Shown here: positions 45,596 to 53,998 of the stretch, piece after piece | How positions within the stretch are numbered: the first letter of the stretch is position 1 | How the letters are laid out: each line of letters starts with the position of its first letter | Sequence record: NC_054912.1 | From: Escherichia phage vB_EcoM_F1 | DNA length: 64,000 nucleotides | Reading direction: 5' to 3' (one strand) | Notes under the pieces: model-generated | Database searches by the model: none | What the model saw: only the letters and a program-made list of their open reading frames with translations | Told to the model about the DNA's origin: nothing | Made by a program: the position numbers and the translations under genes

Positions 45596-45772
45596 TTAAG
45601 TATTGTAAAACATTCGATGCAATCGTTTATACTGTCGAATCATCTTTTTAGTAGGACGAGAATAGGTTCCTACGCAAGTGGTCATATGAGGGTCCGTAGA
45701 ATGTCCTTTAATAAAAAGTTTCCAAACCTTACCGCCATTTAACTTTTCAGTATAAACCAATTCGGTTTTCAT
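45596..45772 (-). CDS. small hypothetical protein (58 aa) whose C-terminus duplicates the Pin C-terminus
   Basis: manually translated; ends KKMIRQYKRLHRMFYNT versus Pin QKIRQYKRLNQMFYNT. Confidence 0.4.
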   Translation of the reverse strand: MKTELVYTEKLNGGKVWKLFIKGHSTDPHMTTCVGTYSRPTKKMIRQYKRLHRMFYNT

Positions 45773-45807: not shown

Positions 45808-46293
45808 TCAAGTATTATAAAACATTTGATTCAATCGCTTATATTGCCGAATCTTTTGGTCAGAAAAAGAAATTTGGGTTTCAAGCCATTCAATATATTC
45901 TGCCGCAGCTTGCATCAAATTTCCTTCATAGCCATCGTTATTTTCTTGTGCAGCTAATTTAGCTAATGCGTATGAAATACGTTCACCTTGAAAACCGGCT
46001 TTAGGTTTATGAATAGCTTGATCAACTCGTTCTACAACTTCTTCAATTTCGCCGTTTTCGACTGATTCAGTATTCCACAAACACCAATACGTAATTGGCT
46101 TATCATAGATGTTAATAATCTTTCCGTCGGAAAGTTCAATTTCAATAATTCCAGTATCAGGTTCTATATCATCTTCACATTCTTTTGCAAGTTCACGAAC
46201 TTTAAAGACAGTACCTGCACTAAGTTCCGGCCAGTAATTACATAGCCCTGTATCAGCACGATTAATTCTAAACCACTTATCTACTGTAATCAT
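45808..46293 (-). CDS. pin: Pin, inhibitor of host Lon protease
   Basis: 161 aa from ATG 46293 (MITVDKWFRINRADTGLCNYWPEL); recognised as T4 Pin. Confidence 0.7.
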   Translation of the reverse strand: MITVDKWFRINRADTGLCNYWPELSAGTVFKVRELAKECEDDIEPDTGIIEIELSDGKIINIYDKPITYWCLWNTESVENGEIEEVVERVDQAIHKPKAGFQGERISYALAKLAAQENNDGYEGNLMQAAAEYIEWLETQISFSDQKIRQYKRLNQMFYNT

Positions 46294-46588: not shown

Positions 46589-46804
46589 TTACCCCAGTTT
46601 GACCATGCAATCGCCGTATTTCCACTTAGAAATAGACTTTTCGCCATTAGAATAATAAACTTCGAGTTTAGCACGATTATTTTTAATTTGAATAACCTTT
46701 GCTGTCATCAAAGTTCCATACCCATAATAAACTGCAACTTCATCACCTACATATACCGCGCTTCCGCGGTAATCGTGAATATAGTCAGTTCCTTCGATCA
46801 TCAT
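46589..46804 (-). CDS. hypothetical protein (71 aa)
   Basis: ATGA overlap with nrdC stop. Confidence 0.45.
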   Translation of the reverse strand: MMIEGTDYIHDYRGSAVYVGDEVAVYYGYGTLMTAKVIQIKNNRAKLEVYYSNGEKSISKWKYGDCMVKLG

Positions 46805-47064
46805 TTAAAATATTCTCGCAGTTGGTCAAATCCACCAATATGACTTCCATCAGGAGCAAATACCTGGGGCATTGTCAAGCCAATTTGAGTATCACGACCT
46901 AGTTTAGTCAGAATCTCAGCGATTTTCTCATCATCAAAAACACCTTTTTCCGGCATAATGTTGATAAATTCAAACGGCTGTTTCTTCACGGTCAAAAGAC
47001 GTTTTGCATTATCGCAATACACACATTTATGAATGTTGCTATCATAACCATATACTTTAAACAT
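46801..47064 (-). CDS. nrdC: glutaredoxin/thioredoxin NrdC
   Basis: 87 aa MFKVYGYDSNIHKCVYCDNAKRLL, CVYC redox motif; recognised as T4 NrdC. Confidence 0.85.
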   Translation of the reverse strand: MFKVYGYDSNIHKCVYCDNAKRLLTVKKQPFEFINIMPEKGVFDDEKIAEILTKLGRDTQIGLTMPQVFAPDGSHIGGFDQLREYFK

Positions 47065-47065
47065 A

Positions 47066-47308
47066 TTATTCCTTAATTCCTAGTACTTGTTTAAAAGTCT
47101 CGTCGTAATCAAGACTTTGGCCCGTTTGTTCTTTATGTTTGTATATAATATCACTTACTTCTGATAGCATATTTTTATATGAACGAGTTAAAGCAGATTT
47201 AAGCACGCTGTATCTATCAGGAAATTTACCATGTTCATTATAATAAGCTATTGCTAATTCACGGACTGCCTTTTCAGCAGCCTCCATATATTCTTTACGC
47301 TTGGTCAT
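47066..47308 (-). CDS. hypothetical protein
   Basis: track ORF 47066..47449 trimmed to internal ATG ([13 protein letters not shown]); start uncertain. Confidence 0.4.
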
Positions 47309-47609
47309 TTTCTTCTCGGTCAAATCGGTGTTTACAATGGCGACATTTATAACGAAGATTACTAGTCTGCCAATGGACCAATTGCACCTGTTCAGTTCCA
47401 CATTCAGGGCAATTAGGAACGTTTTTAGAAGCCCTTTCACGACGTTCAACCATGACCATTACAGAATCCCAATTAATAGGAGGGCTATAATCATCACAAC
47501 CATGAATCTTTCCACGCATTTCCAAATCGTCTTCTTCACCAGCCATAATAATTTTAATTAGACTAGAATTACTTGAAGCTGCAATGTCTTCTAATAAACG
47601 CTTTTTCAT
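47295..47609 (-). CDS. zinc-ribbon protein (104 aa)
   Basis: CPECG...CRHCKH four-Cys motif. Confidence 0.5.
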
Positions 47610-48532
47610 TTCAATACCTCAATAGCATTACGTAAACCATTTGCTTTGGAGGTTAAAGCCTTAAGAACTTTAGTATGCTCTTCAATTTGTTTTTCAACTT
47701 CAGCCAAACGGGCATTGAGATATTCGCGTTCTTCTTTCATAGTATCATTCCCATGATTGGGTTTTGGTGCAGATTTAAATTCACTAGGGTCCTTTAACTT
47801 AATAACAAATTTAGTTTCAAACAGTGAAAGACCATAATTCGTATTATCATCAAAGGATTTAACTACATCCATATTAGATAATAACTCATGCAAATTATAA
47901 GACAAAGAACTAATAGTTTCATTGTGTTTATTAGCTTCGCGTGGTTTCATATACGGAAGATTTTTATATATCTCATGCGGAGCGCAAACGATAATTGACA
48001 ATTCAAATTGTCCATTCTGGGACGATGGAATGAATTTAGCCGTAACCCAGTCTTTTACATTCACATTAATAGTACGGTTATCACCATGACAAAACAGTCT
48101 ACGAGAATGCTTAAAAAGCATATTCACGTTATTATTGAATTCGTGTGAAAATTCACTAGCAAATTTTTCTTTACTATCTTTAGAAAACCATTCTTCTAAA
48201 TAAGTTCTTTTCACGTCGTTAATAATATTAAATGTAACAACACTAGCATTTGATACATTAGTCTCAATGTAGCTTGGATACATAAATTTTTTAACATTAT
48301 TAACAGCTATCACAGAAGATAGTAATCGGGAACGTTTGAACCACTCGAGCAAAGAACCAAGAGAATGTGAATACGCATTTTGTGTATCTTTACAAATATG
48401 GTTTTCCCATCCAATATAGTCTAAAAAATCACGAAGAATATTATTGATTACTGCTCTGTGTCCGATCTGATAATTACGGTGTTTAGTAATAAGACTGTCA
48501 AAATAATCAATATAATGTTTACGAGTTTTCAT
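47606..48532 (-). CDS. coiled-coil family protein, paralog 1 of 4 (308 aa)
   Basis: C-terminal heptad-rich segment; W..F...Q.L..AS+L core motif shared with the next three genes. Confidence 0.6.
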   Translation of the reverse strand: MKTRKHYIDYFDSLITKHRNYQIGHRAVINNILRDFLDYIGWENHICKDTQNAYSHSLGSLLEWFKRSRLLSSVIAVNNVKKFMYPSYIETNVSNASVVTFNIINDVKRTYLEEWFSKDSKEKFASEFSHEFNNNVNMLFKHSRRLFCHGDNRTINVNVKDWVTAKFIPSSQNGQFELSIIVCAPHEIYKNLPYMKPREANKHNETISSLSYNLHELLSNMDVVKSFDDNTNYGLSLFETKFVIKLKDPSEFKSAPKPNHGNDTMKEEREYLNARLAEVEKQIEEHTKVLKALTSKANGLRNAIEVLK

Positions 48533-48586
48533 GTTCTTCTCACTTGGTTAATGATTTATGCTCCGAGCCATCCTTGGCTTTAAATT

Positions 48587-49588
48587 TTACTTAATTAACT
48601 GTAAAGCTTGTTCAAGACGATCAAGGCGATTAACAGATTCTTCCCAAATCCTTTTAGCCTGCTCATATTCTTTGTGCGCTTTATTAGAAATTTCTAGAAC
48701 TTCTTTATAAGCTTTTTCTAATGCAATAACTTCTGGACGAATTTCTACCGGTTCAGGTGAATCATCAAGATTATCCATTAGTTCCTCAAGAGTAGTTTCT
48801 TCTTTAGGAGTATTCACAATTTCATCACATTTTTGTTGATAAATTTCTTTACTAGTAGGTGAATAAGTACATTTCACTTCACGAAGACTAACTACAATTT
48901 TATATCCTTCCCAACCACACAGATTTTTGAAAGGATATGTATGAATACTTTTTACAGTTTTCATACAGCCCAAAGCCGCCTCTAATTGATGAGTTGTGGT
49001 TCTAGCAATTGAGAAAAATTTATTAATATTCTTTTGGTTAGTTTCTGGTGTAAAAAATCTGTAATTAATAAAAATAGCTACTTTGTTTTTATCAAGCTCA
49101 TATTCTTCTGCTATAATCATATCATCAGCTAAGGGATGAATTTGACGATAATCGCCATAACATAATTTAGAAGCTGATTTTAGAATTTGCTTCGTAAAAC
49201 TCCTAAATTCACTAACCCAACGACGAGTAAAAATATTCTCAGGGTCTTCTTTATTATTAAGATGATAAGAATTAACATCACCGAACCAATTATATCCTAC
49301 TACATCTTTGGTTCGTTTAATTTCTTTCCCAAAATTACCAAGAATATCCCGATTAACCAAATATGAAAGAAGACGAGACTCTTTAAAAGTTTTCTTGATA
49401 ACATCTTTATCTACACGGCTAGAAATTTTACGAATTTCATGAATAAATTTAGTAGAAGAAACAATACTTGCATCAACACTATTGAGCCATTGATTGATAA
49501 TAGAAAGAACGATATTTTGACCAAACATCGGTATAGCTTTATCATCAATAACTCTATTGAATGATTTGATATATTCGTTACGAGTCAT
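48587..49588 (-). CDS. coiled-coil family protein, paralog 2 of 4 (333 aa)
   Basis: ATG at 49588 with GAGGAG RBS directly downstream of an early promoter; track ORF extends to 49639. Confidence 0.6.
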   Translation of the reverse strand: MTRNEYIKSFNRVIDDKAIPMFGQNIVLSIINQWLNSVDASIVSSTKFIHEIRKISSRVDKDVIKKTFKESRLLSYLVNRDILGNFGKEIKRTKDVVGYNWFGDVNSYHLNNKEDPENIFTRRWVSEFRSFTKQILKSASKLCYGDYRQIHPLADDMIIAEEYELDKNKVAIFINYRFFTPETNQKNINKFFSIARTTTHQLEAALGCMKTVKSIHTYPFKNLCGWEGYKIVVSLREVKCTYSPTSKEIYQQKCDEIVNTPKEETTLEELMDNLDDSPEPVEIRPEVIALEKAYKEVLEISNKAHKEYEQAKRIWEESVNRLDRLEQALQLIK

Positions 49589-49616
49589 AATAATCTCCTC
49601 AGTAGAAAGTAAGAAC

Positions 49617-49646
49617 ATTATACCACATCCTTGTGGCAAAGTAAAC
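49617..49646 (-). promoter_or_regulatory. T4-type early promoter
   Basis: minus strand GTTTACtttgccacaaggatgTGGTATAAT. Confidence 0.5.
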
Positions 49647-50671
49647 TAGTTCAGTGCATTTAGTGCATTGTTCAGTTTAGAACGTTGCTTTGTCAGATTT
49701 TGAACCCTTGACTGAGCTTGTTCTAACGCCTTTTCAGCTTCTAGCACTTCATTGGTCGCTTTAACGAGTTCATCATCTACTGCCTTAAGAGACTTCTCAA
49801 TCGCGTCAGCGTGCCATTTTTCTACAGGTTTAAAATTTGAATTTTCAGTAGGAAGAAAACTCACTTTATTAAGTTTACATGCATCTATATTGCTTGAGCT
49901 ATACATCCAAAATTTAGGATCGTTTGATAAGTAATTGGATAAATTTAAATTTAAGTTATCTTGTACTTCCTGCTTTTTCTCTTGCGTGACTTCGTCCTTT
50001 CTCAAAAAATCGTATTTAAATGAAACGATCATATCAAGTTCATACGTTGTTGTGTCTAACTTAAATCGTTCAAAACGAGGTAAAATCTTAGATTGAACAG
50101 CAGCAACAACATCCATATACTTAAATGCTTCTGTCAACTGTGATTTAAGGCATTCACAAATTGAAAGAGAATTTTTTGTATTAGGTTTAAAGCTAATTCG
50201 CGCAGTTCTATTATTTTCTTTTAATGGTCTTACTTCCATTTGAAGAGTATAACCATCAAATTTCAGATTCTTTAAGTTAATATCAGAACCTTTTAATCGA
50301 CTAGCAGTAGACAAAATTTGCTTTAATTGTCTACGGAACAGAGCAATAAATCTCCATTCAATACGATAATGATTTGGATTGAAAAATCCAGATGATAAAT
50401 CGACCTTACTCTGACCAACGCCTTGAACAAATAGAGGATTTTTATAATCAATAGTTTTACAGAAATCGGTGAGCTGTTCACGAGCAGTCATTTGTGTAAT
50501 ATATCCAGCTTTATCAAAATGACGTAACCATTCACTGCTATTCATATACTTAAAGTGAATATCACGATTAACTTTATCAGGGTCTAAATTATTTTGGCAC
50601 AAAAATGTCATAACATCACGAGTATAGCTGGCATTACGAACCATATCTTCAATTTGAGAACGAGTTTTCAT
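49646..50671 (-). CDS. coiled-coil family protein, paralog 3 of 4 (341 aa)
   Basis: motif YRIEWRFIALFRRQLKQILSTASRL aligns with paralog 2 RRWVSEFRSFTKQILKSASKL. Confidence 0.6.
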   Translation of the reverse strand: MKTRSQIEDMVRNASYTRDVMTFLCQNNLDPDKVNRDIHFKYMNSSEWLRHFDKAGYITQMTAREQLTDFCKTIDYKNPLFVQGVGQSKVDLSSGFFNPNHYRIEWRFIALFRRQLKQILSTASRLKGSDINLKNLKFDGYTLQMEVRPLKENNRTARISFKPNTKNSLSICECLKSQLTEAFKYMDVVAAVQSKILPRFERFKLDTTTYELDMIVSFKYDFLRKDEVTQEKKQEVQDNLNLNLSNYLSNDPKFWMYSSSNIDACKLNKVSFLPTENSNFKPVEKWHADAIEKSLKAVDDELVKATNEVLEAEKALEQAQSRVQNLTKQRSKLNNALNALN

Positions 50672-50679
50672 AGTGTTCC

Positions 50680-51588
50680 TTAAGATTTAAGTAAATCAAC
50701 AATTTTAATTAATTTTTCACGCTCAGATTTAGCTTTACTACTCAATCCAGATAGTCTGAAAATTTCATCGTCATACTGTTGAATAGAAATATTCAGCTCT
50801 TCAATTTGCTTATTAAAATAATCAATTTGTTCAGAATGTTTTTCGTTACTACGAACTGGTACAGGTTTTGTAGGTAATTTAGATGAACTGGATTCATCCG
50901 GGCGATAAATTAAAATACAACTTGAACCAATAGGGCATTTTGCACCAGATGAATATTCTAATGTTCCGGCTTCTTTTAAAACTTCAAAAGCTAAACAGAG
51001 ATGATGCCCCATATTAACATAATCAGTAGAGCGAGCTCTGATATAATAATCATCGCCGCGAATACTAAATTTAAAGCATTTAAGGTCTTCTGTATTATTG
51101 GTCTTAAAAATCATTTGTTTATCTAGACCTTTAGCTAATCGAGCGCCTAATGCTAATAATCGTCGTTGATTTTCCCACAAATCCGCAATCATTTGATCAA
51201 ATGATAATTTCGGCATTAGTCGACCATAAAGGTCGTATCCTTTATTATAATTGCGAAGGATTTCACTCGCATTAATACGAGACAATGCTCCAATTTTATT
51301 AAGGGCTTTCATGATGCGATTAGATAAACCCATTCCAGACCCATTTGTTCGTTGTAAATGTTTATCTAATCCAAACCCAATATCAACTTTAAATTTATCT
51401 AAAATTTCAGCATGAACATCTCTGTCAATAACATTCAAATCCAAAGTTGGGTTAAATCTATGAAAAAATTTATCTGGCTCTCCACGACGAAGTACAGTCC
51501 ATTCATTCAATTTTTTATTAACTAAAGATTTAATTACTGCATTGACATTATTAATTACGACTGACATATTTTCCTCACTCAATTTCAA
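50680..51588 (-). CDS. coiled-coil family protein, paralog 4 of 4 (302 aa)
   Basis: more divergent; retains W.NQRRLLALGARLAKGL core and C-terminal coiled coil. Confidence 0.55.
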   Translation of the reverse strand: MKLSEENMSVVINNVNAVIKSLVNKKLNEWTVLRRGEPDKFFHRFNPTLDLNVIDRDVHAEILDKFKVDIGFGLDKHLQRTNGSGMGLSNRIMKALNKIGALSRINASEILRNYNKGYDLYGRLMPKLSFDQMIADLWENQRRLLALGARLAKGLDKQMIFKTNNTEDLKCFKFSIRGDDYYIRARSTDYVNMGHHLCLAFEVLKEAGTLEYSSGAKCPIGSSCILIYRPDESSSSKLPTKPVPVRSNEKHSEQIDYFNKQIEELNISIQQYDDEIFRLSGLSSKAKSEREKLIKIVDLLKS

Positions 51589-51982
51589 TTTTACTAAATA
51601 CGCAGAATATGATGGAAAAGACTATATAAGCACCACACACAGATTGAACTAATACCATTCCAAAGAACCAAACAATATTATCAAACAATGTCTGTTTTAC
51701 GTCGAAAGGACGTAAACTTACAGTAATATTATCGCCTTTTTCTATTGATGAATACATCTCTGGGGAAATATATTCGCTAAATCTATAACCGTCATTGAGT
51801 TCATATACAGCAATAAACGATAAACTAGATCCCTTTCCTTGAGTTCCTGTAAGGGTATTAACTACAGTAACATCATAATCTTTATAATGCATATAATCAT
51901 TAATTGCGTAATAACCATATGCAATTACTATACATAAACAACATATCAATAAATTCAATCTTTTAATTATCAACTGTTTCAT
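51575..51982 (-). CDS. membrane protein (135 aa, N- and C-terminal hydrophobic helices)
   Basis: LLICCLCIVIAYGYYAI and IVWFFGMVLVQSVCGAYIVFSIIFCVF segments. Confidence 0.5.
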   Translation of the reverse strand: MKQLIIKRLNLLICCLCIVIAYGYYAINDYMHYKDYDVTVVNTLTGTQGKGSSLSFIAVYELNDGYRFSEYISPEMYSSIEKGDNITVSLRPFDVKQTLFDNIVWFFGMVLVQSVCGAYIVFSIIFCVFSKIEIE

Positions 51983-52037
51983 AATAATCTCAGTTAAAAG
52001 GGCTTAGAACCATTATACCATCCTTGGTATAAAGCGG

Positions 52038-52565
52038 TTATGCGAGTACCGTCTTTAACCGTTCTTCAAACTTCCGAAGAGTATTCTGGCGTTCAGCTCT
52101 TTGCTTTTTGTAAGTTTCAATACGCTCTGAAATGAGAGTGTATCGTTCATTTACTGATTCTTTCATAAAATCAGGAATTTCACGAGAAGATTTAATCTCG
52201 TCAAATTTATCAATAACAGCTTGCTCTTCAGCAATTAAGTTATCATACATCAAAATATCTTTCTTGATGAACTCAATATCTTCTTGAGTTACACGAGATA
52301 ATTTAGATGCTTTATCCTTTTTGTACTGTTCATTAGTATCACGAGACCAGTGTAATGTACGATTTTTATTCGTATTTTTGTAAATTTCTACAATACCGAT
52401 CTCATCAATAATAACGATCCAATTCCAACGAGATTTGTAAATTTGCCCTCCATCAACCGTGATTTCACCTCCGATTGAGATGTCATTAAAGAACTTGCTT
52501 TGTGCTTCAGATTTAAATTTACCATCATTGTAGTTTACCAAGTTGAAAATATCTTTAGCATTCAT
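52038..52565 (-). CDS. hypothetical protein (175 aa)
   Basis: ATG at 52565 with GGAGGA RBS downstream of an early promoter; track ORF extends through the promoter. Confidence 0.5.
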   Translation of the reverse strand: MNAKDIFNLVNYNDGKFKSEAQSKFFNDISIGGEITVDGGQIYKSRWNWIVIIDEIGIVEIYKNTNKNRTLHWSRDTNEQYKKDKASKLSRVTQEDIEFIKKDILMYDNLIAEEQAVIDKFDEIKSSREIPDFMKESVNERYTLISERIETYKKQRAERQNTLRKFEERLKTVLA

Positions 52566-52591
52566 TTTCTGTTCCTCCGTAGTTGATAGTT

Positions 52592-52623
52592 GTATAGTAC
52601 CACAGAGGAACGGTCTTGTAAAC
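52592..52623 (-). promoter_or_regulatory. T4-type early promoter (TGGTACTATAC variant)
   Basis: minus strand GTTTACaagaccgttcctctgTGGTACTATACaactatcaactac. Confidence 0.45.
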
Positions 52624-52625
52624 AA

Positions 52626-52940
52626 CTAAAAGAAACTTCTTTCACAATTTTTTCCACTGAACCACGCGCTCACTGCTTTCTTAGTCTCAGGAGCAGTGTT
52701 ATCCATAAACCATTCAAAGGCAGCCTTTTTATGATTCTGGAGAGCTTCTCGGGCTTTAATCTGCTCACGGTCTATTAACACTAACATATGAGCCTTTCTT
52801 GTCACCAAGGGCTTCTTATGATTCTTGGAGTATTCCCAGTCATTTGTCCAACGCATTGTCGTTGCGAACTGAAATACTGCTTCTTTAATTTTAGTTTCGT
52901 AAATTTCACGAGCCTTTGAGTATAACATCATTACCTCCAT
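52626..52940 (-). CDS. hypothetical protein (104 aa)
   Basis: track ORF. Confidence 0.45.
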   Translation of the reverse strand: MEVMMLYSKAREIYETKIKEAVFQFATTMRWTNDWEYSKNHKKPLVTRKAHMLVLIDREQIKAREALQNHKKAAFEWFMDNTAPETKKAVSAWFSGKNCERSFF

Positions 52941-53029
52941 TTACCAGTTTAATTCTAGTCATCTTTTTGATGGCAGTCCATATAATCTATTTCTGAACTG
53001 CCTTTTTGTCATAGAAGGCCTCTTATGAA

Positions 53030-53998
53030 TTATTTCAGAAGAGTAACCTCAGCAATTTCTTCCCAACCATTTTTGTCGGTCATAATAAAGTCAGCAAGAT
53101 AAAGAGCAGTACGCAGTGAAACATTGCGTAAACGATTAACATTGACTTTCATCCATGATAATGCTTTATAAGTTTCTTCATCAGAAAGACCGCGCTTTTG
53201 CATCATGTCAGTTGAAAGAATAACATCTTCAACCCTGACCATAATTTCTTCATTAGTGTGAACACCCAAATCCAAATAAACCGAGCGGGACACTAATGCT
53301 TGTAAATGTGGAGCAAGTTTAGTACCACGGTCTAATTCGCGGTCAATGTCAACGTTTGTGATAAAAACAATCGTTCCTTTAAATTCAAACTCACGCTCAA
53401 TGCCTTTTTCTTCTAAGTAAGAAGATGCAGTGCTCCAGCAGACTTTACGGGTCTCTCCAGTGTCCAGAGCAGCTTTCAGAAGATTAAGAATGTCCATATC
53501 AGAGAAAACATCCACATCATCAATCAAAAGGACAGAATTCTCTTCACGATTATTCCAAAGCTGTTCATAAAGACCGATACCAGAGATTTTACCATTAATG
53601 CTTTTATACTCAATGTATCCAATGTCATTTGCTTTATTTAAAGCTTTATCTAAAGAATACGTTTTACCAATACCCGCCGCACCAGAGATAATTAATGAAC
53701 GAATGTTTCCGTTAATAATACCATTCGTCATCATTCCCATAACATTAAATCTTTTATTAATGCGGGTTTTCATATCTTCATATGATTCTTTAACTTCTTC
53801 AACTTTTACACCATCATATGAAATGTCTGATTTGTAAACCCAAACACCGCGACGCTTACCGTCAATTTCAACAAAAACTTTACCATCTCCTTGTGCATCT
53901 ACCGGAGCATTATCTGGGAACCATTCACCTAAGAGCTCAAAAGTTCCAGAGATTTCTTTACCGAAGTAGATACCCTTATTGATAGTTACAGTTTTCAT
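53030..53998 (-). CDS. P-loop AAA+-type ATPase (322 aa)
   Basis: Walker A GAAGIGKT, Walker B LLIDDVD, sensor-like FITN; ATG at 53998 with GGAGAA RBS (track start is GTG). Confidence 0.6.
   Translation of the reverse strand: MKTVTINKGIYFGKEISGTFELLGEWFPDNAPVDAQGDGKVFVEIDGKRRGVWVYKSDISYDGVKVEEVKESYEDMKTRINKRFNVMGMMTNGIINGNIRSLIISGAAGIGKTYSLDKALNKANDIGYIEYKSINGKISGIGLYEQLWNNREENSVLLIDDVDVFSDMDILNLLKAALDTGETRKVCWSTASSYLEEKGIEREFEFKGTIVFITNVDIDRELDRGTKLAPHLQALVSRSVYLDLGVHTNEEIMVRVEDVILSTDMMQKRGLSDEETYKALSWMKVNVNRLRNVSLRTALYLADFIMTDKNGWEEIAEVTLLK

What the first reader, a model, noticed from the sequence alone, without database searches (positions are those of the whole stretch)
47606..51588. Tandem array of four paralogous proteins with variable N-terminal domains and C-terminal coiled coils
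Four consecutive genes (308, 333, 341 and 302 aa) share a core motif (W..F...Q.L..AS+L: FTKQILKSASKL / LKQILSTASRL / RLLALGARLAKGL) and each ends in a 40-50 aa heptad-rich coiled-coil segment. The rest is highly diverged. One has an early promoter and strong RBS directly upstream. Locally duplicated and diversifying families like this are typical of accessory or host-interaction loci, and I cannot assign a function.
Basis: seen in the sequence. Interest (0 to 1): 0.65.

Follow-up and report, generated by a model that had tools for sequence, protein, structure and literature searches.

The report
T4 nrdC.3–nrdC.6 anti-defence paralogue array
These four neighbouring early genes of a T4-like phage are diverged copies of one gene; one copy (NrdC.5) is already known to switch off a bacterial immune protein (Dsr1), so the other three are good untested candidates for the same kind of job.

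Summary
The window is Escherichia phage vB_EcoM_FN, a Tequatrovirus. The four genes are the orthologues of T4 nrdC.3, nrdC.4, nrdC.5 and nrdC.6.

Relatedness comes in three grades. NrdC.3 and NrdC.4 are certain paralogues (same PHROG and Pfam family; hhalign 98%). NrdC.5 is a probable remote homologue (hhalign 62–74%; shuffle z = 7–11). NrdC.6 is a likely one: enriched profiles give 66% (z = 8–11), the AlphaFold models have collinear secondary structure, and both models hit the same Foldseek neighbours.

Only 5 of 68 larger ORFs in the window end that way.

They are not thioredoxins. That database label comes from gene-name propagation.

On function, T4 nrdC.5 was shown to neutralise the Dsr1 sirtuin defence (eLife 2022). 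The block is dispensable in the laboratory, early-transcribed, variable in copy number (1–4) and hypervariable in allele. The best reading is a diversifying family of anti-defence proteins. This is a useful lead, not a new kind of system.

The parts
47606..48532 (-). nrdC.3 orthologue (308 aa), a paralogue of nrdC.4
   Evidence: ORF and annotation. Full-length match to phrog_1435, E=3.6e-98. hhalign against the C4 family gives 98.2%, E=5e-14. Allele classes in the phage database at about 90-100%, 60% and 55% identity.
48587..49588 (-). nrdC.4 orthologue (333 aa)
   Evidence: phrog_1435, E=3.3e-164. Pfam PF26897, named Phage_T4_Y04OP. AlphaFold2 model with pLDDT 81.7.
49617..49645 (-). T4-early-type promoter (GTTTACT-N17-TGgTATAAT) in front of nrdC.4, followed by a GAGGAG RBS
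   Evidence: Consensus scan, 10/12 matches with the extended TG. Sequence read directly. Function as a promoter is inferred from the consensus and was not measured.
49646..50671 (-). nrdC.5 orthologue (341 aa). It belongs to DUF7235; the T4 orthologue (95% identical) is the published anti-Dsr1 gene.
   Evidence: PF23882, 382 bits, E=2.4e-114. phrog_2351. 95% amino-acid identity to T4 NrdC.5. Function from PMC9391042. Remote homology to the C3/C4 family: hhalign 62-74%, E=7e-5 to 3e-5, shuffle z=7-11.
50680..51567 (-). nrdC.6 orthologue (295 aa, ATG start)
   Evidence: phrog_2257, E=8.5e-153. PF26899, Phage_T4_Y05B. RBS and start codon. AlphaFold2 model with pLDDT 75.8. Link to the other three proteins.
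47609..47746 (-). C-terminal heptad helix of NrdC.3 (residues 263-308)
   Evidence: Heptad scan. Preceded by the Pro-rich linker KSAPKPNHG.
48590..48736 (-). C-terminal heptad helix of NrdC.4 (residues 285-333)
   Evidence: A single 48-residue helix, H285-332, in the AlphaFold2 model. Heptad scan.
49649..49825 (-). C-terminal heptad helix of NrdC.5 (residues 283-341)
   Evidence: Heptad scan, best score 0.9. Weak matches to coiled-coil Pfam families.
50683..50844 (-). C-terminal helices of NrdC.6 (residues 242-295; H242-271 and H277-294)
   Evidence: AlphaFold2 model. Heptad scan.
49145..49243 (-). Equivalent segments: NrdC.3 48083-48199, NrdC.5 50288-50365, NrdC.6 51118-51201.
   Evidence: Helices H116-130/H132-140 in C4 and H123-132/H134-144 in C6. 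hhalign alignments. This is the best-conserved internal segment within the C5 and C6 families.

Best explanation
The four genes are tandem paralogues of one ancestral early accessory gene of T4-like phages (nrdC.3, nrdC.4, nrdC.5, nrdC.6).

Each protein has the same layout. A globular part of about 230-280 aa consists of an N-terminal helical bundle, a conserved helix pair and a four-stranded alpha/beta sandwich. A proline-rich linker follows, and then a 45-58 aa amphipathic heptad helix.

Proposed mechanism. The proteins are made early in infection. The heptad helix makes them oligomers. The fast-evolving surfaces (the N-terminal ~60 aa and the beta-rich sandwich) bind a host immune protein and block it. 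NrdC.5 blocks the Dsr1 sirtuin (NADase) defence. I propose it does so by binding Dsr1 directly, most simply on its sensor domain, so that the phage trigger cannot activate NAD+ depletion. The other three paralogues are proposed to neutralise other defence proteins or other Dsr1-like variants. That would explain why copy number and alleles turn over so quickly.

Shown: gene structure, paralogy of C3 and C4, the early-type promoter sequence, dispensability in the laboratory host, and the anti-Dsr1 phenotype of T4 nrdC.5 (published).

Inferred: homology of C5 and C6 to C3/C4, oligomerisation through the helix, direct binding to Dsr1, and any anti-defence role for NrdC.3, NrdC.4 and NrdC.6.
For: Identity. 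100% match to MZ170041.1 and 95% nucleotide identity to T4 across nrdC to nrdC.9.

Paralogy of C3 and C4. Same PHROG. Same Pfam family, named Y04OP. hhalign 98.2%.

C5. hhalign of the merged C3+C4 profile against C5 gives 62-74% (E=7e-5 to 3e-5) over about 140 collinear non-coil columns. The score of 37.7 compares with 14.0+-2.2 in column shuffles, and z=7.1 in block shuffles. C3, C4 and C5 share the N-terminal start M(K)TR..(Y/I)I.

C6. The superfamily profile against the enriched C6 profile gives 66%, E=5.6e-5, with z=11 (column shuffles) and z=8 (block shuffles). The order of secondary-structure elements is identical in the C4 and C6 models. Both models hit the same BFVD proteins of other T4-like phages with probability 1.00 for four of the five: IME523 at 1.8e-6 (C6) and 1.9e-8 (C4), PM2 at 3.5e-6 and 1e-7, Acj9 at 3e-4 and 3e-6, fHe-Yen9-01 at 7.7e-3 (C6, prob 0.97) and 1.7e-4, and CBH8 at 3.2e-5 (C4), where the C6 hit is only prob 0.44, E=1.2e-2. 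The Karamvirus gene at the C3/C4 position next to nrdC.2 is, by sequence, a C6 relative (87%, E=3.7e-6).

Architecture. Only 5 of 68 ORFs in the window end in a heptad helix.

Accessory and arms-race signature. Copy number is 1-4 depending on genus. NrdC.3 and the Karamvirus homologue each have several allele classes within one genus. dN/dS is 0.2-0.4 for C3/C4 against about 0-0.1 for gp49, NrdC, NrdC.1, NrdC.8 and NrdC.9. Only 9 cluster representatives exist among 1.84 billion proteins, none obviously cellular.

Function. T4 nrdC.5 restores plating of a deletion mutant on E. coli carrying dsr1 (PMC9391042). The nrdC.1-6 block is deletable (PMC9825161). The neighbouring Gp49.2 inhibits OLD (PMC13096335), so the region behaves as an anti-defence neighbourhood.
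Against: With the shallower alignments, the session's hhalign tool gives only 25% for C4-C5 and 1% for C4-C6. C5 against C6 directly is at noise level.

The C4 model did not retrieve the NrdC.6-family BFVD entries directly, and the C6 model did not retrieve NrdC.3/4/5 entries. The structural link is therefore transitive.

Foldseek alignments have TM-scores of only about 0.45 with large rmsd, partly because the long helix has no fixed position.

The C-terminal helix is not demonstrably homologous between families: a leave-one-family-out HMM fails to find the omitted family.

No experiment addresses NrdC.3, NrdC.4 or NrdC.6. No mechanism is published for NrdC.5, and the eLife paper does not show direct binding.

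dN/dS is below 1 everywhere, so positive selection is not demonstrated.
Confidence: 0.6

Rival explanations
1. Only nrdC.3 and nrdC.4 are true paralogues. nrdC.5 and nrdC.6 are unrelated genes that converged on, or acquired by recombination, a similar C-terminal coiled coil and a few helix motifs. On this reading the 'array of four' is really a cluster of three families.
For: Pfam and PHROGs keep three separate families. The session hhalign on shallower alignments gives 25% and 1%. C5 against C6 is at noise level. The coil shows no cross-family sequence signal.
Against: Enriched profiles give 62-74% (C5) and 66% (C6), with z=7-11 against both column and block shuffles, always over the same collinear region. 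The order of secondary-structure elements is identical in the C4 and C6 models. The two models share Foldseek neighbours. Lengths, linker and helix placement are the same, and the genes are adjacent.
Confidence: 0.2
2. The proteins are morphogenetic or virion-associated factors related to tail-terminator/tail-completion proteins (for example assembly chaperones or neck decoration), not anti-defence proteins.
Confidence: 0.05
3. They are thioredoxin/glutaredoxin-like redox proteins of the nucleotide-reductase pathway, as many GenBank records label them.
For: Product names of 'thioredoxin' in MZ170041.1 and many other records.
Against: There is no Pfam or NCBIfam thioredoxin or glutaredoxin match in any of the four, whereas the true NrdC (46801-47064) matches glutaredoxin models. 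The predicted folds are not thioredoxin-like. The label follows the gene names 'nrdC.x', which only indicate map position.
Confidence: 0.01
4. The proteins act on a host process other than immunity, such as takeover of transcription, the membrane or metabolism. On this reading the Dsr1 rescue by NrdC.5 is indirect, for example by suppressing production or exposure of the trigger.
For: No direct binding of NrdC.5 to Dsr1 is shown in the literature found. Many T4 early proteins remodel host machinery (general knowledge).
Against: Hypervariable alleles and rapid changes in copy number are more typical of direct arms-race interfaces. The block has no phenotype in the laboratory host. Rescue needs only NrdC.5 supplied in trans.
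Confidence: 0.14

Closest known systems
T4 NrdC.5 (UniProt Y05A; Pfam DUF7235/PF23882), anti-Dsr1 factor (Srikant, Guegler & Laub, eLife 2022)
   Same: The gene at 49646-50671 is its orthologue: 95% amino-acid identity, the same position in the locus, and a full-length DUF7235 match.
   Different: The published work covers only nrdC.5 and gives no mechanism or structure. In the passages I read (term searches, not the whole paper) it does not say that the three neighbours are diverged copies of the same gene.
DSAD1 of Bacillus phage SPbeta-like phages (inhibitor of the DSR2 sirtuin defence)
   Same: A phage protein that neutralises a SIR2-domain NAD+-depleting defence protein. It binds the sensor region and competes with the phage structural-protein trigger. 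This is the model I use for how NrdC.5 may work.
   Different: No sequence or fold relationship was found. It targets a different protein (DSR2, not Dsr1). DSAD1 is not part of a tandem paralogue array and has no C-terminal heptad helix, as far as I know from memory.
T4 anti-defence neighbourhoods: dmd-tifA-adfA 'anti-TA island', and Gp49.2 (anti-OLD) next to this locus
   Same: Clusters of small, early, non-essential, fast-evolving genes, each of which disarms one host defence. Gp49.2 lies less than 2 kb from nrdC.3 in T4-type genomes.
   Different: Those genes are unrelated to one another. Here the cluster arose by duplication of a single gene of about 300 aa.
Phage tail terminator / tail completion proteins (lambda gpU, SPP1 gp17-like, T5 p142, DUF3168)
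   Different: The similarity is weak and not specific. The NrdC proteins are twice as long, are expressed early, are dispensable, and carry additional helical and coiled-coil parts.

Membership tests
Pfam PF26897 Phage_T4_Y04OP / phrog_1435 (NrdC.3 and NrdC.4) | Full-length significant match to the family profile | tested here: met
   Against phrog_1435, NrdC.3 scores 3.6e-98 (residues 2-308) and NrdC.4 scores 3.3e-164 (residues 1-333). All C4 homologues carry PF26897. NrdC.5 and NrdC.6 do not match.
Pfam DUF7235 / PF23882 (NrdC.5, anti-Dsr1) | Score above the gathering threshold (30 bits) over the whole model | tested here: met
   NrdC.5 scores 382 bits over positions 1-307 of 307. NrdC.3 scores only 14.9 bits, confined to the coil. 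NrdC.4 and NrdC.6 have no match. Only the gene at 49646-50671 is therefore a member.
Pfam DUF7235 / PF23882 (NrdC.5, anti-Dsr1) | Neutralises Dsr1-mediated defence | not testable with these tools
   Shown for T4 NrdC.5 (PMC9391042). The protein in the window is 95% identical, so the activity is inferred.
Pfam PF26899 Phage_T4_Y05B / phrog_2257 (NrdC.6) | Full-length significant match | tested here: met
   phrog_2257, E=8.5e-153, residues 1-295. All 105 homologues carry PF26899.
Proposed NrdC.3-6 superfamily (all four in one family) | Significant profile-profile similarity outside the coiled coil | tested here: inconclusive
   C3-C4 gives 98%. C3+C4 against C5 gives 62-74% with z=7-11, but only 25% with shallower alignments. 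The superfamily profile against C6 gives 66% with z=8-11, but only 1% with shallower alignments. C5-C6 directly shows nothing.
Proposed NrdC.3-6 superfamily (all four in one family) | Same predicted fold | tested here: inconclusive
   The C4 and C6 models have the same order of secondary-structure elements and share five Foldseek targets, four of them at probability 0.97-1.00 for both models. No direct superposition was possible, and no model was made for C3 or C5.
Thioredoxin/glutaredoxin (database label) | Thioredoxin-fold profile match or CxxC active site | tested here: not met
   No match in Pfam or NCBIfam. The real NrdC in the same window does match glutaredoxin models.
Tail terminator / tail completion proteins (gpU-like) | Fold similarity to solved members | tested here: inconclusive
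Tail terminator / tail completion proteins (gpU-like) | Late expression, essential for tail assembly, present in the virion | tested here: not met
   Early-type promoter and early-region location. The block is deletable (PMC9825161). Presence in virions was not tested.
Coiled-coil proteins | Heptad periodicity of hydrophobic residues in a long helix | tested here: met
   A crude heptad scan picks out the last 45-58 residues of all four proteins. The region is predicted as long helices. Oligomeric state was not tested.
Known anti-phage defence systems (PADLOC) | Match to any defence-system model | tested here: not met
   No hits for any of the four proteins.

The most novel reading that the evidence does not exclude
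The NrdC.3-6 proteins are early-expressed molecular decoys built on a tail-terminator/tail-completion-like alpha/beta sandwich. By imitating a conserved virion-protein surface and oligomerising through the heptad helix, they would occupy the sensor domains of host pattern-recognition defences (Dsr1/Avs-type) before the real late structural proteins appear. Each paralogue or allele would be tuned to a different sensor.
Probability: 0.12. Interest if true: 0.8.

Novelty: new member of a known kind. Interest (0 to 1): 0.45.

Why it matters
T4 is the best-studied phage, yet about half of its genes have no known function. If nrdC.3, nrdC.4 and nrdC.6 are diverged copies of the anti-Dsr1 gene nrdC.5, they become three specific, easily testable candidates for new anti-defence activities.

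It would also give a natural series of related proteins (paralogues, allele classes, and single-copy relatives in Enterobacter and Acinetobacter phages). That series could be used to map which surfaces determine specificity.

The finding also flags a widespread annotation error: hundreds of phage records call these genes 'thioredoxin'.

It is not a new type of system. Anti-defence gene clusters and their rapid turnover are well known.

Tried and rejected
1. Pairwise BLASTP among the four proteins gave a signal only for C3-C4 (E=5e-4); the other pairs were marginal or limited to the coil.

2. A leave-one-family-out HMM of the last 32 residues did not detect the omitted family. I therefore dropped the idea that the terminal '(K/R)L..A(I/L)..LK' ending is a homologous module.

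3. NrdC.8 as a fifth family member: it shares only the heptad ending, with no profile similarity.

4. Searching for distant relatives:
- The search for related loci in IMG/VR returned only close T-even relatives.
- An exhaustive HMM search of 1.84 billion representatives with the C4+C3 profile found only 9 clusters, all belonging to the C3/C4 family.
- tblastn from the Mosigvirus NrdC.6-like gene and from CC31p082 stayed within their own genera.

5. Other library searches found nothing: PADLOC, a PDB sequence search with NrdC.5 and NCBIfam.

6. Literature on other nrdC.x genes. The DRT1 paper mentions nrdC.8 only as a down-regulated 'reductase' and is not relevant. EVADES and the Avs7/Dsr1 paper do not mention NrdC.5.

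7. The thioredoxin annotation is rejected.

Full report
WHAT THE REGION IS

The 5.7 kb around the finding is 100% identical to Escherichia phage vB_EcoM_FN (MZ170041.1, genus Tequatrovirus), and window coordinates equal record coordinates. It is about 95% identical to phage T4. In T4 the four genes are annotated nrdC.3, nrdC.4, nrdC.5 and nrdC.6, all 'conserved hypothetical protein'. In the FN record every gene from nrdC to nrdC.10 is labelled 'thioredoxin'.

All four genes are on the minus strand:
- nrdC.3: 47606-48532, 308 aa
- nrdC.4: 48587-49588, 333 aa
- nrdC.5: 49646-50671, 341 aa
- nrdC.6: 50680-51567, 295 aa

The ATG at 51567 follows GAGGAA, and Met1-Ser2 are invariant in 23 homologues.

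Directly upstream of nrdC.4 lies GTTTACT-N17-TGgTATAAT, followed by GAGGAG-N7-ATG.

ARE THE FOUR PROTEINS RELATED?

NrdC.3 and NrdC.4: yes. Both match phrog_1435 over their full length (3.6e-98 and 3.3e-164). Pfam's newer family PF26897 is named Phage_T4_Y04OP, that is, both T4 proteins together. Profile-profile comparison gives 98.2% probability, E=5e-14.

NrdC.5 (Pfam DUF7235): probably.
- A merged C3+C4 profile aligns with the C5 profile over about 140 collinear columns that lie outside the coiled coil, at 62-74% probability (E=7e-5 to 3e-5).
- With the coil removed the score is 37.7, against 14.0+-2.2 (maximum 22.6) for 100 column shuffles. Against shuffles of 10-column blocks, z=7.1.
- The session's own hhalign tool, on shallower alignments, gives only 25% (E=8e-4), though the alignment runs collinearly from residue about 60 to the C-terminus.
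- C3, C4 and C5 also begin alike: MKTRKHYI, MTRNEYI, MKTRSQI.

NrdC.6 (PF26899): likely, but the evidence is more indirect.
- Family-to-family hhalign is weak.
- I enriched the C6 profile with the divergent Mosigvirus and Karamvirus relatives and compared it with a merged C3+C4+C5 profile. This gives 66% probability, E=5.6e-5, over the region holding two collinear motifs. The z-scores are 11 against column shuffles and 8 against block shuffles.
- In Foldseek searches of BFVD both models hit the same uncharacterised proteins of about 310-335 aa from other T4-like phages, at probability 0.97-1.00 for four of the five: Enterobacter phage IME523, Pectobacterium PM2, Acinetobacter Acj9 and Yersinia fHe-Yen9-01. 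For the fifth, Serratia CBH8, the C6 hit is only probability 0.44.
- In Acj61 the two models hit proteins with adjacent accessions (E5E4A1 and E5E4A2).
- The Karamvirus gene that sits where nrdC.3/nrdC.4 would be, next to nrdC.2, is by sequence a remote NrdC.6 relative (87%, E=3.7e-6).

Caveats. Neither model retrieved the other family directly. TM-scores are about 0.45. I could not superpose the two models.

THE C-TERMINAL HELIX

The last 45-58 residues of each protein show heptad periodicity, follow a proline-rich linker, and are predicted as long helices. Among 68 non-overlapping ORFs of at least 100 aa in the 64-kb window, only five end this way: these four and NrdC.8, which lies two genes away. 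The feature is therefore far from random.

It is not demonstrably homologous in sequence between families. An HMM built from the endings of three families does not find the fourth. NrdC.8 shares nothing else with the four. I treat the helix as shared architecture, most simply an oligomerisation element.

EVOLUTIONARY BEHAVIOUR

The locus changes quickly.
- Tequatroviruses carry C3, C4, C5 and C6.
- Mosigviruses carry only a C3-like and a divergent C6-like gene.
- Dhaka- and Gapriverviruses carry C4, a 27%-identical C5-like gene and C6, with C5 split in SP18.
- Karamvirus and an Acinetobacter phage carry one copy next to nrdC.

NrdC.3 occurs in three allele classes in the phage database, at about 90-100%, 60% and 55% identity. 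The roughly 55% class includes Mosigvirus phages such as G2469, so only the first two classes are shown to occur within Tequatrovirus. There is a breakpoint inside the gene: between FN and phage 107 the first 60 residues are 93% identical and the rest 41-64%. The Karamvirus homologue shows the same kind of pattern.

One metagenomic phage has lost nrdC.4 and fused part of nrdC.5 to nrdC.3.

dN/dS is 0.25-0.42 for C3 and C4 and 0.04-0.20 for C5 and C6. For gp49, NrdC, NrdC.1, NrdC.8 and NrdC.9 it is about 0-0.12. This indicates relaxed or diversifying constraint, but it does not prove positive selection.

Within families, the helix pair and the C-terminal helix are the most conserved parts. The first ~60 residues and the beta-rich sandwich are the least conserved.

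The C3/C4 family is tiny. It has 9 cluster representatives among 1.84 billion proteins, and all of them fall in the C3/C4 family.

FUNCTION

The literature search found one decisive paper. Srikant, Guegler and Laub (eLife 2022, PMC9391042) evolved T4 on toxIN cells. One clone carrying compensatory deletions could no longer infect ECOR17. Deleting dsr1 from ECOR17 restored infection. Plasmid-borne dsr1 protected MG1655 against the clone. Expressing T4 nrdC.5 alone restored plating. The FN protein is 95% identical to T4 NrdC.5.

I found no follow-up on the mechanism.

Related context:
- Dsr1 is a SIR2-domain protein whose sensor domain, shared with Avs7, recognises phage major capsid proteins (PMC13581612).
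- The T4 nrdC.1-6 block can be deleted (PMC9825161).
- The nearby Gp49.2 inhibits the OLD defence system (PMC13096335).

The four proteins have no thioredoxin or glutaredoxin signal, while the true NrdC does. They match no defence-system model and no solved structure by sequence.

FOLD

It does suggest a speculative idea: an early-expressed mimic of a virion-protein surface that occupies immune sensors. I rate this at about 0.12.

MOST LIKELY MECHANISM

The genes encode early, oligomeric binder proteins (oligomeric through the heptad helix). Their variable surfaces engage and block host defence proteins. NrdC.5 acts on Dsr1, by analogy with DSAD1 acting on DSR2. The paralogues and alleles would represent different specificities.

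Shown: gene anatomy, C3/C4 paralogy, the promoter sequence, dispensability, and the published NrdC.5 phenotype.

Inferred: C5 and C6 homology (probable and likely, respectively), oligomerisation, direct binding, and any role for C3, C4 and C6.

VERDICT

The genes themselves are long known. C3/C4 paralogy is already encoded in Pfam and PHROGs, and one member has a published anti-defence function. Two things are new. First, there is evidence that all four genes, and single-copy genes in distant T4-like phages, form one fast-evolving family. Second, this nominates three specific candidates for new anti-defence activities.

This is a solid, testable lead of moderate interest, not a new kind of system.

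Noticed in passing
window 52038-52565 (-), nrdC.8: NrdC.8 (175 aa) is the only other ORF of at least 100 aa in the window that ends in a heptad-patterned helix (...ERIETYKKQRAERQNTLRKFEERLKTVLA). It lies two genes from the array, behind the membrane protein NrdC.7. Unlike the four, it is highly conserved (98-99% identity, dN/dS about 0.02-0.05). hhalign finds no similarity outside the coil.
   Followed up: partly
window 46801-53998; GenBank MZ170041.1 CDS FN1NEW_0087 to FN1NEW_0097: Eleven consecutive genes (nrdC to nrdC.10) are labelled 'thioredoxin' in the source record, and the same label recurs in hundreds of T4-like genomes. Only the 87-aa NrdC matches glutaredoxin models. The four genes I tested show no such signal (the others were not tested), and for them the label is a propagation of the map-position names nrdC.x.
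   Followed up: yes
window 47295-48350 (nrdC.2 and the 3' three-quarters of nrdC.3) compared with L010 (phage 107): There is a mosaic segment. Between FN and phage 107, NrdC.3 residues 1-60 are 93% identical but residues 61-308 only 41-64%, and the adjacent NrdC.2 is 78% identical with dS about 0.8-1.1. Flanking genes have dS of about 0.02-0.17. This looks like cassette replacement with a breakpoint inside nrdC.3.
   Followed up: partly
L030 3070-4400 (metagenomic T4-like contig, 167 kb); protein P0119: This is a natural deletion derivative of the locus. nrdC.4 is absent. A 115-aa ORF (called with no Pfam hit) lies where the 5' end of nrdC.5 would be; I did not check its identity. A 299-aa ORF joins the middle of NrdC.5 in frame to the C-terminal 175 residues of a divergent NrdC.3 allele (junction ...KFNKV|NMLFKH...).
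   Followed up: partly
protein P0121 (Shigella phage Sf25 NrdC.6, 378 aa): This NrdC.6 homologue carries an exact internal tandem duplication of about 83 residues (IRAHSTDYVNMGHH...NKQIEEL appears twice). It duplicates the second half of the sandwich and the start of the coil. It could be an assembly artefact or a real in-gene duplication.
   Followed up: no
window 49621-49638 (-) and 48565-48580: Similar short hairpins sit in the two intergenic gaps of the array. GCCACAAGGATGTGGT lies between the -35 and -10 elements of the nrdC.4 promoter, and GCCAAGGATGGC lies upstream of nrdC.3. Both have the loop A(A)GGA. They might be RNA-processing, stability or attenuation elements, or coincidence.
   Followed up: no
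window 45596-45772 (-) and 45808-46293 (-): A 58-aa ORF lies between gene 49 (endonuclease VII) and pin. It ends in ...IRQYKRLHRMFYNT, almost the same 14 residues that end the Pin protease inhibitor next to it (...IRQYKRLNQMFYNT). T4 has no gene at this position. It may be a partial duplication of the pin 3' end.
   Followed up: no
L028 17116-18114 (Enterobacter phage CC31, CC31p082): tblastn of the Karamvirus homologue matches all relatives only from residue 15 onward, so the annotated start of CC31p082 is probably 14 codons too far upstream. The family is confined to 34 Karamvirus-type records, with allele classes at 90% or more, about 67%, and about 61% identity.
   Followed up: partly
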